Shown here: positions 3,061 through 50,162 of the stretch, in pieces
Layout: the number at the start of each line of letters is the position of its first letter
How positions within the stretch are numbered: the stretch's first letter is position 1
Position numbers and translations under genes: made by a program
Origin: Squalus acanthias
Lineage: Eukaryota
DNA length: 64,000 nt
Direction of reading: 5' to 3'
Assembly: GCA_030390025.1 (NCBI GenBank)
Contig: CM059425.1
Coordinates: 171,120,001 to 171,184,000 of the forward strand
The notes under the pieces: generated by a model
The model's database searches: none
The model's input: only the letters and a program-made list of their open reading frames with translations
Told to the model about the DNA's origin: nothing

Positions 3061-4013
3061 AGAACCTGCCTAGTGGAGACAATTAGAACAGAAGATCACA
3101 GGAAGAGAGATTTATTCTGAAGAGGGGTGGTGTGAAGAAGGACTAGCTATCAATACAAGGACTTTAATGGCTAACTGCAAAAAGAACTATGTGCAGGGTA
3201 TGTAAATGGCCTGATGAATAATAAGACACTGCAAGCACATCCAAAGTTGGGGTTACATGTACAGTCATGTATCTGGGACAATGTGCCAAATTTAATATGG
3301 TGCAAAAAAGTAAATAAATGGGGCCTTAGAGATTTAAAGGTTAAAGATGAATTTGCACTAGTTAACACTTTCTGTATAGAGTCTTGGAACGTGCAAGTCT
3401 ATTAAACCATCTGTTTTTAGATGTACAGATCAAACACATTCCTTCTATGCCATCAATGCACACCAAGAACAGTATACAGTGTTCGACACTAAACAGCTTC
3501 AGAAGCTAACCTTGAATTTTTCAAACCACAAAGCATGTTCAGAACTCTACTGCAAAGCTAACTTTAAAATCCCATTAATTCTCAAAGGTCACGCTGTGTT
3601 GAGAGATACTTTTGTGACAACTGTGAAACTGTGGACTGTGCTCTTGTCCCGGGTTCCTTATTGGAGGATTGTGGGAAGTCACGTGGTACCAGCAGCTTTA
3701 CGTGAGCGACATCCCACAAATTGTTCACAAATTTTTCCTTGTTTGCTTTTCTTTGTAATGGATTCCAACCCCCCCAACCCCCCCCAATATAAAACCTGAA
3801 GGCTGAGGCCATCACAGCTGTAAGAAAGCAGGGAATAAAAGGTCACTTTTCAGAGCTGAGGACTGTTTGTTCAGTGGAGTTAAGCTGAAGGGAAAGACAT
3901 GAGAAATTCCCTAGGTAGTAATAATAAAAAAAATACAATGCTTGAGTTCACAAGAGGCCCTTTTTAAAAAAAAATTCTCAGATAGCAGCTGAAGCACAGC
4001 TCCCCCCCCTTAC

Positions 4014-4063
4014 ACTGAATATCACGGCGCTTCTTGGAGCTACAGCTACACCAACACAGCGCC
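4014..4063 (-). other. Candidate 50-nt exon overlapping a 38-nt stem-loop
   Basis: Minus strand: ttttttgttgcag|GGCGCT...CAGT|gtaagg. The open frames give unrecognised peptides (ALCWCSCSSKKRRDIQ or RCVGVAVAPRSAVIFS). Confidence 0.2.
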
Positions 4064-4757
4064 CTGCAACAAAAAAGCAGCAGCATGAAGAACCTATTCT
4101 TCCTTTTAATCAGACAACCCAAGGGCTTGGCAGGAGAGCAGACTCCTAAAGAGGACAATAATGGAATATTCAGTGGAGTAAAGTGGAAACGGCCCCAAAA
4201 AATGTAAAGAGGAACCACAGTACTCCATATTGGCCAATCCAACTCCCCACTCTCATTGGAGGGGTTTTTTTCTTGCTTCTTTTCCAGCTTTAAGATGGAA
4301 CACTTCCCTACCTTAAAATTATCCGGCTAATGGCAAGTAATCTGACATCCTGACAGTAAAGTAAAAACAAATGAAACATCCATGGAATAAAGAGGAAATC
4401 AAAGGAACAAAGAGAGAGGGCTATGTACTGCCAATGTACCTTGTCAGCTATTTCCCCTCACTTACTGCTCCCAAAATGACACTCTTTGTTACCTCAAGAT
4501 TCTTTTGGGGATTTGGGATTTTTTTGGCAGCATTTGTTACATTCTACAAAATCTGTGGTTTACCATAAACATTGCACAATCGTGACTGTTTATCTGGAGT
4601 TAATTTGGGGTGGGGTTGTGGCATATGAGCATGTTTAAAGCTTTCCACTTTGGAAGCCAAATCGAATACATTTTCAAATTTGGGATTTGAACTTGAGCAT
4701 CCACAACAGTGATCCAGATCATTGTTCTTTTGCATATAATGCAAACCTTATTTTATG

Positions 4758-24575: not shown

Positions 24576-25609
24576 TAAACCATCAACAGAGCTTGCATTC
24601 GCTTTATTGATCTGAGCCATATAGTTCTCTCATCGCAGGAAAAAAGGGCAATAGTTTTAATGCTAAGAGTAATACACAGGCAGTAGGGGGTATGATTGCT
24701 TCCCTGCACTGTGCCGTCAGCATTACCAAAACTGTGCTGCCTTCTGAATGGTTCTACTGTTTTGGGTAAAAATCCTGCTGCAGTCTGGTTCAGAGGCATC
24801 TTCTGAAAACCATGTTAACCTGTTATTAATGTGCATACAGAACTGTCAACTAGGGTTTGTTGTCCAGTTCTCAAATATCAAAATTACTGGGCACCCCCTC
24901 CCCTCCCCTCCCCACCCCCCAAAAGAAAATCGAACCATCCAGTTTGAAAGCAGATGAGCAGCCATCCTACAGTCAACATCCAAAAAACGGCAGGACTCAG
25001 ATTTATCTCCACAATAGAGCGAGACACATTGCAAACCCATTTAAACAAACAAACAGAGCAGTGTTTTCTTTTAAGAGTCACATGAATGGAAATAGTTTAT
25101 GTTGTAAAACCACAACGGGTGAGTGCCACTCCCAATAACTGGGACTTGGCAGACCTGGTGTACGGCCGGAGCATTCACAGTTGTTCCTTGCAGCACTATT
25201 TCACAGCACTATCAAGAAAAGCATATCCGAGGTGTACGTACTTTTAACTGCACCAGTTAATTTTCAGAAATATATCTGCTGTCATTATTCAAGGATCATT
25301 CTGTGAATTACAGCTCCAGAACTTAGTAGGAAATGTAGAAGTGTACAGATGTTACAGATTAGAAGCAGAAACTGAAAAGCTTCAATGGTGCATTGTTGTC
25401 AGGACTCTCTCACTTACAAGCCAAATTTTCTTATATGTACAAAGTACCTGGTTGGCATCTTTTCAAATCAAGTCAACTGCCATGTTTTTAAACAATGCTA
25501 TACTTCAAAAGCTTAAAGAGCTATAGGAGCTTACGCATGAAGATGATATAGCAAAAACTCTTGATAAATAGGCAGGCCACAGGTTTGGGCTTGTTACTTC
25601 TCACACAAT

Positions 25610-25743
25610 GCGGTAGATCTTGAATTTGTGCAATAGTGTAAAACAGATGATGCAACAGAAATAAAAATCAGGAGAGATGTACAAAGGGCTGCTGACTCGC
25701 TATCACCCGTTTTACACTAGCGCACAAAGTCAAGATCTACCCC
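25610..25743. mobile_element. MITE, ~134 bp, ~40-bp imperfect terminal inverted repeats (TIRs)
   Basis: Left ggtagatcttgaatttgtgcaatagtgtaaaacagatgat; right reverse complement ggtagatcttgactttgtgcgctagtgtaaaacgggtgat. Confidence 0.85.
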
Positions 25744-26239
25744 AGTGAGTTTCTAAGCTCAGCCGGGCTGTATGGGAGAGGTACTCAGTGAAAACAAAAT
25801 AGAGTGCTCTTCTTGAAGAGAGATGAAAAATCCCACTAGGCTATGAGCAGTCCTTACAACTCATGACCACCTTCTGGGAGCTGCTTTAGGAATGGCATTG
25901 AAAGAGGTTGCCTCCCTACTCACTTAACTGATGAATGGTGCAAGGCCTGAAGAATGGGAAAAATGTAAAATATATTGTTGAGCATTGTTGAAAGGTTTGT
26001 GTTGGAAATCAAAATCTCCCTTCCTCTTTGATAATGTTGTTGGTGATAAATGAAGATTTTTGAAGTGATGACACTTGCAACTCCCCTACCTCAGCAGAAT
26101 GACAGCTGCTGGTTTAATGATTCAGTTCAGTCAGAGCTAAGACTCTTGTGGAGACTTATTTGTTTTATATATATATTTTTGCATGAAATGTTATGTTGAT
26201 CATGGTTAAGGATATGTATATTGAGGAATGGAACAAACT

Positions 26240-26632: not shown

Positions 26633-26656
26633 CATGTGAGTAGCTTTAAATTAATA

Positions 26657-26791
26657 CTCACTTCACCTGAGGAAGGGGCCACGTAAGCTCCGAAAGCTTG
26701 TGATTTCAAATAAAACTGTTGGACTATAACCTGGTGTTGTGCGACTTCTCATTTTTGTCCACCCCAGTCCAACACCGGCATCTCCGCATCA
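26657..26791 (+). mobile_element. Penelope-like terminal-repeat-derived mini-element carrying a hammerhead ribozyme
   Basis: 135-bp insertion with 11-bp TSD ttaaattaata (26646-26656 and 26792-26802). Hammerhead motif, then aataaa at 26709-26714, then ctgttggactataacctggtg...cagtccaacaccgg. Confidence 0.8.
26663..26703 (+). ncRNA. Minimal type I hammerhead ribozyme motif
   Basis: Stem I tcac/gtga; core CUGAGGA at 26667-26673; stem II ggggc/gcucc closing a 7-nt loop; GAAA at 26692-26695; palindromic stem III aagctt; cleavage triplet CUU, predicted cut after 26699. Confidence 0.65.
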
Positions 26792-28619
26792 TTAAATTAA
26801 TAGCTCAGAGAGAAAGACAAATAATGATTCACACCACAACCCACAATAAAGAATTACCTCGGCCCTTTCCAGCTAAGTTTCAGATCATATTGTGCTCCCT
26901 GAAAACACTTCAAAAATGTCAATGAATTTGAGCCTAGGTATGATTCATTTCCCATCCAGTCACATCAATTTTATATTATATAAAGTGGTCCCAGGGAAAT
27001 GGCACTCAATTAGACATACTTTTGGGCAGATTGGTACTGTAAGGGTTAAATGGCAGAATCTGTGCAGCTTTACACCAATATGCAATAAGGATATTGCTTC
27101 TTCCCATTTTATTCCCATCCCATCCTCTCCTGAAGGTGTTGATTCATGCTGGGGTACGGCTCGTTCAAACAGCCTAGACTGGAACCAGGCCATTTGACCA
27201 TTTTTGAGGAATTAAAATTATACTGCAACAGCCCCAGTCTCAGAATAACTGGAGTATAGAGTCATATTCATGGAGGCCTGACAGGAGGGGATGACAGATT
27301 AGGCTTCGTTCACATTTCAGATGCCAAGGTAGTTAAGGCAAAATTGTTTTTGGCCACCTGCTGGCTGGGAAATAAGTGAAAAGTAACACTTACTCATTTA
27401 CAGGGATTCCTCCCTGTGTATTCAGAAAATAAACAACTTGCTGAGAGATAGATTGGCTTCTAGTCACTAGACTAACAGCAGCAGGATCAGCGGTGCCAAG
27501 GATCAGCAGGCAACCACCAAGCAGAAGAAAGCCAAATGAAAGCCAGACAACTGCTTTAGCCAGACAATACATGATGTGTCAAGGAAAACAAAAAAATTAG
27601 AATTAGCTCCTTCAACAGCTTGAGGACCAAGAAAGTCTAAAAAATATCGGGGTGAAAAATGATATTGGACCAGTGTTGTGAAGATTAGTGCAGGATAATT
27701 TAATTGTTCAGAAGAAGATTTGAAGAGGACATGAATATATTTGCATGTGCTTTGGGGAGTCAGACTTTTAAATATGTTTATTGAGGGTAAAGGAACACCT
27801 GAAGTATCTGCACCAAAGGCATTTCAAATCAATTTATGATACAAATATATGATTCCACACCCACACACATATATCACCTCCCTTCTCTTTAACATTGCCA
27901 CCCATCCAGTGTTGGGTAAGAGTCCAGTTTTTGAGTGGGCTTGTCTGGGACTTTTTCAAGTGAAAACAAGCCACAAAAATTCTTTCAAATAACTTTCTTT
28001 CACTTACTTCTTTGTCTGCTGGTACGGAAAGACTTTATTAAGGTCTCTAATAATTTGCTTTAACAGCAAAGCAAAGCGGAGGCCAAACCACAATTCCATC
28101 TCTTCTCTGGTTTGACCCCTGCCCTTACATCACTCCCCGTTTGATTTTGTAGTTGGCAAAAAGTGACGACCCTATTCCTTGCTTTAATTCCGAGGTTCCT
28201 CGGTTAAAATGGTGTGTGTGATCAGATTTTCCTATGGTCACTTTCATCCTATTAAATATTTCGAATCTGCTTTAAATCTTAACCCCAAGAGGAAGAATTC
28301 CATCCTTTTGGTACAATGGCTGCTGTGACTAGGTGGGGTAAATAATGGATGAATCCCAGATGGACAGAGCATAGCAGGAGAATAGAGAAGCCAGAAACAC
28401 ACACCACTGACAGGAAGAAACATTTCAGAGGCAAAAAAAAATGACTGATCAAAGGGAGGGAATATGTCTTTAATTTTCCCCTAACTCAATCTCTACTGAA
28501 CTGTACCCGAAAAGTTCAAGGTGGGATTTTCTTTCCATTAAGGTGTTTCTATGCTGGCTGTTTAGGATGCCCTTTGCTCTTTTATAATTTGTTACAGATT
28601 GTTGCTTGTTTTCATTTGA

Positions 28620-29793: not shown

Positions 29794-30013
29794 GGACACC
29801 TGGTCAAGATGTTGACCAGCAATTGCCATTTACGATAGGCTGCAGACTGTTGGCTTCCTAACCAGGTGATCATGAGTTTTGCTCCAGAAACCATCTACTG
29901 TTACACTTGTGTAAGATAAAATTAGGAGCAAAGCTCATGCTCAGCTGGTTAGGAAGCCAACAGTCTGCAGCTTATGGTACAGGGCCATTGCTGATCAACA
30001 TCTTCTGGTGTCC
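29794..30013. repeat. Long inverted repeat (arms ~90 bp, 39-nt spacer)
   Basis: Arms 29794-29885 and 29925-30013, including a perfect 27-bp match gctgcagactgttggcttcctaaccag / ctggttaggaagccaacagtctgcagc. Confidence 0.92.
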
Positions 30014-49442: not shown

Positions 49443-49463
49443 TATTGCATCTACATAGTGTGA

Positions 49464-50162
49464 CAATACGATCTATCACTGATGCACCGACACAGTCTGA
49501 TATTACGATCTATCACTGATGCACCGACACAGTCTGATATTCCGATTTATCACTGATGCACCGACACAGTCTGATATTACGATCCATCACTGATGCACCG
49601 ACACAGTCTGATATTACGATCCATCACTGATGCACTGACACAGTCTGATATTACGATCCATCACTGATGCACTGACACAGTCTGATATTACGATCTATCA
49701 CTGATGCACCGACACAGTCTGATATTACGATCCATCACTGATGCACCGACACAGTCTGATATTACAATCCATCACTGATGCACCTACACAGTCTGATATT
49801 ACGATCTATCACTGATGCACCGACACAGTCTGATATTACGATCCATCACTGATGCACCTACACAGTCTGATATTACGATCCATCACTGATGCACCTACAC
49901 AGTCTGATATTACGATCTATCACTGATGCACCGACACAGTCTGATATTACGATCTATCACTGATGCACCGACACAGTCTGATATTACGATCTATCACTGA
50001 TGCACCGACACAGTCTGATATTACGATCCATCACTGATGCACCGACACAGTCTGATATTACGATCTATCACTGATGCACCGACACAGTCTGATATTACGA
50101 TCCATCACTGATGCACCGACACAGTCTGATATTACGATCTATCACTGATGCACCTACACAGT
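49464..50162. repeat. Minisatellite, 37-bp unit, ~19 copies
   Basis: Unit tattacgatc(t/c)atcactgatgcac(cg/tg/ct)acacagtctga; exact 37-bp period (49501, 49538, ... 50130); no spacers. Confidence 0.97.

What the first reader, a model, noticed from the sequence alone, without database searches (positions are those of the whole stretch)
26646..26802. 135-bp mobile mini-element carrying an apparently intact minimal hammerhead ribozyme
Seen: a perfect 11-bp flanking direct repeat (ttaaattaata) bounds a 135-bp insert. It begins with a complete type I hammerhead fold (tcac-CUGAGGA-a-ggggc[cacgtaa]gcucc-GAAA-gc-UU^gtga). An AATAAA follows, then a second possible hairpin (tgttggact ... agtccaaca). Known: Penelope-like retroelements carry minimal type I hammerheads with palindromic stem III that self-cleave best as dimers. 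Inference: this solo unit has its own TSD and no pol III boxes, so it may be a non-autonomous, ribozyme-processed, retrozyme-like family mobilised in trans. If it lies in a + strand transcript it could also cleave or terminate that transcript.
Basis: partly seen in the sequence, partly recalled or inferred. Interest (0 to 1): 0.7.

Follow-up and report, generated by a model that had tools for sequence, protein, structure and literature searches.

The report
Lone Penelope leader with minimal hammerhead
This 135-base insertion is a lone copy of the ribozyme-bearing front end of a very abundant Penelope-type jumping gene, not a separate mini-element, and about four in ten sampled insertions of the family begin at nearly the same base, likely because the copying enzyme runs off the start of the element's own uncut messenger RNA.

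Summary
A 135-bp insert is flanked by an 11-bp target duplication; a contig from another run shows the empty site. The insert carries a minimal type I hammerhead whose core is conserved, with two compensatory pairs across subfamilies.

The interpretation mostly fails. 132 of the 135 bases are identical to the stretch directly before the ATG of a 3.1-kb Neptune-type Penelope-like element (RT + GIY-YIG); its 3' 20-mer occurs 19,149 times in this genome. No tandem units, no private short lineage and no pile-up of ends at the ribozyme cut site (3 of 153 arms) were seen, so it is not a retrozyme-like family.

The 5' ends are not random either: 38 of 90 sampled insertions reach no further than a 14-nt zone about 31 nt downstream of a conserved TATA box, at an initiator-like motif. 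Best reading: a run-off cDNA of the uncleaved 5' leader, made in cis from the element's internal RT start site. The transcription start is inferred; no RNA evidence was obtained. The scan noted the same fixed start in another genome (e1-9871274). Known kind, small mechanistic twist.

The parts
26646..26656 (+). Left copy of 11-bp target-site duplication
   Evidence: present once at the empty site in run X24; family TSD mode 12 bp, 71% A+T
26657..26659 (+). 5' junction: one base not matching the parent, then two bases matching the parent upstream of the predicted +1
26660..26790 (+). Complete 131-nt leader of the Penelope-like element, from the predicted transcription start (A 26660, in an initiator-like TCACTTC) to the base before the ATG
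   Evidence: identical to the stretch before the ORF in full-length copy L096; start inferred from 5'-end pile-up and TATA at -30 to -34
26663..26703 (+). Minimal type I hammerhead: 4-bp stem I, CUGAGGA, extra A, 5-bp stem II, GAAA, palindromic AGCU in place of helix III, predicted cut after 26699
   Evidence: sequence; conservation and covariation; activity untested
26709..26714 (+). AATAAA, part of the parent's pseudo-LTR; function untested
   Evidence: present in the parent
26717..26774 (+). Predicted stem-loop (arms 26717-26725 and 26766-26774) that spans the inner of the two 3'-end positions
   Evidence: 3' ends
26756..26791 (+). About 35-nt Penelope 'tail', present on one arm of an insertion and missing on the other; ends at the A of the parent's ATG
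   Evidence: 3' ends bimodal: 51 of 100 arms end 49-61 nt and 44 of 100 end 87-110 nt after the 39-nt core; ATG position
26792..26802 (+). Right copy of the 11-bp target-site duplication (its first T also fits the T of ATG)

Best explanation
The insert is a solo copy of the hammerhead-bearing leader of an autonomous Neptune-type Penelope-like element, likely made when the element's own reverse transcriptase copied the 5' end of its uncut mRNA and ran off the predicted transcription start. Shown: identity with the stretch before the parent ORF's ATG, the TSD, the empty site, two fixed 3' ends about 35 nt apart, a sharp 5' boundary in a large share of copies, and a TATA box about 31 nt upstream of it in the parent. 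Inferred: Pol II starts at A 26660; the GIY-YIG nuclease makes staggered nicks about 12 nt apart in A+T-rich DNA; RT starts internally at either end of the tail (shown in vitro for another PLE, PMC11167929). Because the leader occurs at the 5' end of the mRNA as well as in the downstream pseudo-LTR, starting at the 5' copy gives a short cDNA with a fixed end, and starting at the downstream copy gives long, variably truncated copies. One cDNA gives a solo copy like this one; two, primed from both nicks, would give the commoner head-to-head fold-backs. The solo lacks the TATA box and is predicted to be a dead end. The hammerhead is a passenger: under selection in the master elements, but its cut does not define this unit.
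For: Full-length copy L096: 3,118-bp unit, leader abuts the ATG of an RT + GIY-YIG ORF, direct pseudo-LTRs (RVT_1 at E 9e-9). Sample chosen by the 3' motif alone (90 of the first 91 listed of 19,149 matches): furthest 5' reach within -5..+8 in 38, in -55..-6 in 6, beyond -55 in 34, shorter in 12 (binomial p 1e-19 for 38 in 14 nt against 6 in 50 nt). Window's own subfamily: 34 of 100 arms start in -5..+5 (18 of them at +1 or +2) against 11 in -55..-6. TATA(A/T)A at -30 to -34 in 25 of 25 long copies picked without using that motif. One ORF-bearing copy (L050) starts at +2. Only 3 of 153 arms end within 2 nt of the cut site. 16 of 18 hammerhead haplotypes seen in boundary-class insertions also occur in long copies; the other 2 are singletons. 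TATA + TCACT was described in a rotifer PLE pseudo-LTR (PMC3846280, passage); uncleaved RNA was the main substrate in vitro (PMC11167929).
Against: No RNA evidence for the start site: no run on record as RNA and no raw reads were listed. No clear extra G (cap signature) at solo 5' junctions; microhomology with the TSD blurs them. Ends scatter over about 14 nt, and 29 of 153 arms end inside the hammerhead. Two other ORF-bearing copies start at about -9 and -12 and two further upstream. The unbiased sample comes from the first 14.3 Mb of one contig. D. virilis Penelope uses a TATA-less internal promoter (PMC2377424, passage), so a solo leader might keep some promoter activity.
Confidence: 0.75

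Rival explanations
1. It is an ordinary 5'-truncated copy of the downstream pseudo-LTR, and the 5' pile-up is a truncation or template-switch hot spot (RNA structure next to stem I, pyrimidine-rich microhomology, or self-priming on an antisense template) unrelated to the RNA's 5' end.
For: PLE insertions are known to be heavily 5'-truncated (PMC8557442; median 128 bp for a Chlamys pair, PMC9977147). 34 of the 38 boundary-class insertions are fold-backs, for which antisense self-priming has been proposed (PMC3846280). The boundary abuts hammerhead stem I.
Against: The step is about 14- to 20-fold per base and lies just past the structure in the direction of copying, where a stall is not expected (inference). 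It coincides with a TATA/initiator pair kept in all 25 long copies examined, and it holds for solo copies with clean TSDs (7) as well as for both arms of fold-backs.
Confidence: 0.17
2. It belongs to a non-autonomous, ribozyme-processed, retrozyme-like family that is transcribed from solo or tandem units and mobilised in trans.
For: Solo units with their own TSD and a common boundary exist (window, L094, L098, L107, L136, L142, L029). The core is conserved with compensatory changes. Retrozymes are argued to derive from PLE pseudo-LTRs (bioRxiv 10.64898/2026.07.22.740005).
Against: No head-to-tail unit arrays in 229 loci; the closest same-strand spacing is 218 nt, and the two cases inspected are separate insertions. 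No private haplotype beyond 2 singletons. Ends are not at the cut site. Solos are a minority: 4 of 90 boundary-class insertions lack an inverted anchor, one of them with a short inverted stub. The solo has lost the TATA box.
Confidence: 0.05
3. It is a solo pseudo-LTR left by recombination between the two direct repeats of a full-length copy.
For: Full-length copies have direct repeats; recombination or deletion was suggested for rotifer solo pLTRs without TSDs (PMC3846280).
Against: Fold-back arms stop at the same boundary, which recombination does not explain; the 5' repeats of ORF-bearing copies differ in length (+2, -9, -12, -40, -50 or more), so recombination would not give one boundary.
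Confidence: 0.03

Closest known systems
Endonuclease-positive Penelope-like elements of the Neptune/Nematis type (PMC8557442)
   Same: RT with DKG motif, CX2-5CxxC linker, C-terminal GIY-YIG-type domain, pseudo-LTR with hammerhead, 30-40 bp tail, inverted 5'-truncated arm, TSD, heavy 5' truncation.
   Different: A sharp 5' boundary at the predicted start in about 40% of sampled insertions is not described in the passages read; this element's tail ends at the ATG.
PAc (Poseidon) of Anolis carolinensis (PMC11167929)
   Same: Two 3' ends one tail apart, matching two internal RT start sites; A+T-rich targets; hammerhead cut not needed for insertion.
   Different: PAc's ORF starts inside the hammerhead and RT starts 111-118 nt into the ORF; here the hammerhead and both inferred start sites lie upstream of the ATG; different clade.
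Minimal hammerheads of metazoan PLEs (PMC4209133)
   Same: Core, extra base between A9 and G10.1, G10.1-C11.1 pair, palindrome in place of helix III, short helix I, mostly found as single dispersed motifs, variable loop II.
   Different: Helix II is 5 bp (7-8 bp reported for Schistosoma); position 17 is U in this subfamily; a competing hairpin is predicted for its loop II.
Pen2a_Av pseudo-LTR of Adineta vaga (PMC3846280)
   Same: TATATATA followed by an initiator-like TCACT, tail, inverted arm, solo pLTRs.
   Different: Its solo pLTRs were reported without TSDs and ascribed to recombination or deletion; here solos have TSDs.
Non-LTR retrozymes (PMC7229834; bioRxiv 10.64898/2026.07.22.740005)
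   Same: Short, non-coding, type I hammerhead, related to PLE pseudo-LTRs.
   Different: Retrozymes are tandem repeats, mostly with canonical hammerheads, processed to unit-length circles; none of this is seen here.

Membership tests
EN+ Penelope-like element (parent) | Single ORF with PLE-type RT (DKG motif) | tested here: met
   L096 ORF with KPADKGG and RYIDD, one in-frame stop in that copy; RVT_1 above cut-off
EN+ Penelope-like element (parent) | C-terminal GIY-YIG endonuclease with two cysteines between GIY and YIG | tested here: met
   read by eye as VYL-IRCRKECTAAW-YIG against the description in PMC8557442; Pfam gave no GIY-YIG hit
EN+ Penelope-like element (parent) | Pseudo-LTRs, optional 30-40 bp tail, inverted 5'-truncated arm, TSD | tested here: met
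Neptune/Nematis type | CX2-5CxxC linker upstream of the endonuclease | tested here: met
   C-HGNL-C-KT-C; feature as given in PMC8557442
Neptune clade proper | Placement in an RT tree with reference elements | not tested
   no reference PLE proteins were fetched; Nematis is not excluded
PLE minimal type I hammerhead | Conserved core with variable N7, extra base after A9, G10.1-C11.1 | tested here: met
   93 arms in the unbiased loci: C3 91, U4 84 (C 8), G5 91, A6 92, G8 89, A9 91, extra A 90, G12 92, A13/A14/A15.1/U16.1 93 each; N7 G34 C50 A6 U3; 19 loop II variants
PLE minimal type I hammerhead | Palindrome in place of helix III; stems I and II kept by covariation | tested here: met
   AGCU in 93 of 93; 179 of 180 cells paired, 2 compensatory pairs in 20 haplotypes (sequences related, probably one event each)
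PLE minimal type I hammerhead | Self-cleavage as a dimer | not testable with these tools
   needs in vitro assay; monomer fold predicted rare for this haplotype
Non-LTR retrozyme | Tandem repeats of two or more hammerhead-bearing units | tested here: not met
   no unit-length spacing in 229 loci
Non-LTR retrozyme | Unit ends or RNA ends set by the ribozyme | tested here: not met
   3 of 153 arms end within 2 nt of the cut, against 60 in the -5..+8 zone; DNA copies only
Non-LTR retrozyme | Own lineage, separate from the autonomous partner | tested here: not met
   132 nt identical to ORF-bearing copies; haplotypes shared between short and long classes
Non-LTR retrozyme | Unit-length linear and circular RNAs | not testable with these tools
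   no raw RNA reads listed
SINE | Internal pol III A and B boxes | tested here: not met
   consensus scan negative (box patterns recalled)
Rfam hammerhead families | Covariance-model hit | tested here: not met
   no hit at E up to 5 and 10

The most novel reading that the evidence does not exclude
About 40% of this family's insertions are strong-stop-like run-off copies of the uncleaved 5' leader, and the common fold-backs are two such cDNAs primed from both target nicks at the two internal start sites and joined head to head. Thousands of genomic stubs would then map the transcription start, both RT start sites and the uncut state of the hammerhead in vivo, and give a genome-only test of the Penelope transposition cycle.
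Probability: 0.5. Interest if true: 0.45.

Novelty: new member of a known kind. Interest (0 to 1): 0.25.

Why it matters
As a single insertion it is ordinary: one of thousands of Penelope stubs, of a kind described since 2014. The family-wide pattern matters a little more. How PLEs make their tails, inverted arms and pseudo-LTRs is still open, and internal RT initiation has been shown in vitro for one element only. A fixed 5' boundary at the predicted start, with no peak at the ribozyme cut, is the in-genome footprint that model predicts, and it says that the hammerhead is usually uncut when the RNA is copied. It also warns repeat annotators that such stubs can look like an independent SINE- or retrozyme-like family.

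Tried and rejected
Rfam scans: no hammerhead hit. Own-genome DNA searches with the 3' 60 and 92 bases returned nothing because the tool skips very common words; not evidence of rarity. Pfam on the C-terminal 397 aa: no family; PDB sequence search: no hit. Host gene: 110 stop-to-stop frames of 75 aa or more in the window gave no Pfam hit above cut-off; short exons would be missed, so intron or intergenic status is unknown. No RNA holder listed. Runs X20, X21 and X23 did not cover the flanks at the site. Script versions discarded: searches (extension broke at indels; replaced by 68; reference panel contaminated by inverted arms; replaced by 44), core counts (register error; replaced by 66), solo list (missed short-loop haplotypes; replaced by 68 and 74); the haplotype parser required the core and left 67 of 328 arms unparsed, so its invariance counts are not used. 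Cut-site starts considered: L203, L207, L201 end at +40/+41, but L203 is explained by GTGA microhomology with its inverted arm and the count (3 in 5 nt) is below the density inside the hammerhead (29 in 30 nt), though above that downstream (6 in about 70 nt); a minor cleaved-template class is not excluded. A splice acceptor at the boundary was rejected: no AG precedes it and solos share no upstream exon. Lunse et al. 2017 on dimer cleavage was not held and is known here only through the review PMC6765202.

Full report
1. Observation. The insert 26657-26791 is flanked by TTAAATTAATA on both sides, which 2 of 20,000 random placements reproduce once the window's tandem array and the site itself are left out. 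A contig of run X24 joins 26645 to 26792, skipping the insert and one repeat copy, with about 3% other letters in the flanks: the empty site exists and the repeat is a true TSD. The hammerhead elements, AATAAA and the downstream hairpin are at the stated places. Rfam has no hit, as expected for a motif without helix III.

2. Copy number and parent. The 39-nt hammerhead core of this subfamily occurs 638 times exactly (control 0); the 3' terminal 20-mer, shared by sister subfamilies, 19,149 times (control 0). Many copies extend upstream through a 3' UTR into an ORF. Locus L096 holds a full-length copy with a 3,118-bp unit: a short 5' repeat, then the leader, whose last bases run directly into the ATG of an ORF of about 890 codons (one in-frame stop in that copy), then the 3' repeat without tail, all inside an 11-bp TSD. 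The protein has an RT (RVT_1, E 9e-9) with the DKG motif, a C-X4-C-X2-C linker and a GIY-YIG-type C-terminus read by eye; by the description in PMC8557442 (passages) this is the Neptune/Nematis type. 132 of the 135 inserted bases are identical to this parent. The insert is therefore the leader part of the pseudo-LTR plus tail.

3. Ends. 3' ends are bimodal about 35 nt apart: of 100 arms of the young subfamily (found in the loci fetched around the first 100 listed matches), 51 end before the tail, 44 at or just past its end, 5 earlier. This is the known tail, which Frangieh et al. tie to two internal RT start sites (PMC11167929, main text read). For 5' ends I used a sample chosen by the 3' motif only: 90 of the first 91 listed matches (one skipped because already held), all in the first 14.3 Mb of C1. 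With A 26660 as +1, the furthest 5' reach per insertion was -5..+8 in 38, -55..-6 in 6, beyond -55 in 34, +9..+38 in 8, shorter in 4 (p 1e-19). Of the 38, 34 are head-to-head pairs and 4 show no inverted anchor. In the young subfamily 34 of 100 arms start at -5..+5, 18 of them at +1 or +2, against 11 in -55..-6 (this sample cannot see arms shorter than the core); 7 of these loci, the window included, are solos with exact TSDs, with or without tail. In 25 of 25 long copies picked by alignment alone a TATA(A/T)A lies at -30 to -34, and the boundary base sits in an initiator-like TCACTTC or TTACTTC (consensus recalled). The same TATA + TCACT pair was described in a rotifer PLE (PMC3846280, passages). 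One ORF-bearing copy begins at +2; four others begin further upstream. TSDs: 63 of 90 insertions show an exact upstream repeat of 9 nt or more, mode 12, 71% A+T.

4. The hammerhead. In 93 arms of the unbiased loci the core is kept at 89-93 of 93 per position, apart from U4 (84; a U4C lineage exists), while N7 takes all four bases, position 17 is U or C, and loop II has 19 variants. In 20 haplotypes, each seen in two or more loci, 179 of 180 stem cells pair and two pairs change on both sides; the sequences are related, so these are probably two events. This matches the minimal PLE hammerhead of Cervera and de la Pena (PMC4209133, results and discussion read), who found thousands per vertebrate genome, mostly single, with no monomer and low dimer activity. 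Only 3 of 153 arms end within 2 nt of the cut, so cleavage does not define the unit; in vitro, unprocessed RNA was the main substrate for PAc. In this subfamily loop II can pair with the AGCUUGUG segment, and the hammerhead stems are predicted at P 0.06 and 0.09 in the monomeric leader, against 0.2-0.94 and 0.38-0.99 in ten sister haplotypes; 'intact' is true of the sequence, not necessarily of the fold.

5. Is there a separate short family? No sign of one. Of 18 haplotypes seen in boundary-class insertions, 16 also occur in long copies and 2 are singletons; no unit-length tandem occurs in 229 loci. Retrozymes are defined by tandem units and circles (PMC7229834, passages; bioRxiv 10.64898/2026.07.22.740005, abstract to discussion read). 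The solo has no pol III boxes and no TATA upstream.

6. Mechanism. Shown: identity, TSD, empty site, two 3' ends, one 5' boundary, TATA upstream in the parent. Inferred: transcription starts at +1; RT starts at the tail of the 5' leader and runs off the RNA end; solos are one cDNA, fold-backs two; long copies start at the downstream repeat. I put this at 0.75; a truncation hot spot unrelated to the RNA end at 0.17; a non-autonomous family at 0.05; recombination at 0.03.

7. Novelty. Every part is known. A fixed 5' boundary at the predicted start was not found in the passages read from six searches; subscription papers, Lunse et al. 2017 (not held) and all supplements were not seen and may contain it. 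Other papers seen as passages only: PMC2377424, PMC6765202, PMC9977147. Verdict: new member of a known kind; interest 0.25.

Noticed in passing
L073 (oriented position about 1558), L077 (about 1598), L141 (about 4013): A G-rich-ended element with terminal inverted repeats (about 830 bp in L077; looks like a small DNA transposon, family label not tested) interrupts the Penelope leader at nearly the same base, matching window 26719-26722, in 3 of 129 arms; run X20 shows a similar loose end at 26719. Possible target preference.
   Followed up: partly
window 26680-26702: This young subfamily's loop II is predicted to form a competing hairpin that disrupts the hammerhead (P of stems under 0.1), unlike ten sister haplotypes, yet the core has 638 exact copies.
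   Followed up: partly
L162, L168, L186, L191, L192, L204: A lineage with U4 changed to C in the hammerhead core, often with a compensatory change in stem II.
   Followed up: no
L120 oriented 3950-4400: A fold-back Penelope insertion lies directly against the tail-less 3' end of another Penelope copy, both ends bounded by the same short repeat.
   Followed up: no
L192, L189: Two insertions with an apparent 25-bp TSD in the same host repeat, twice the family mode; several other copies (L160, L161, L204, L096 bystander) also share one host-repeat site.
   Followed up: no
window 25603-25750 and 29816-29994: Two small inverted-repeat elements (49-nt arms at 84% for the first); their Rfam miRNA hits are below gathering score.
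   Followed up: no
window 49446-50162: Tandem array with a period of about 74 bp at 95% identity.
   Followed up: no
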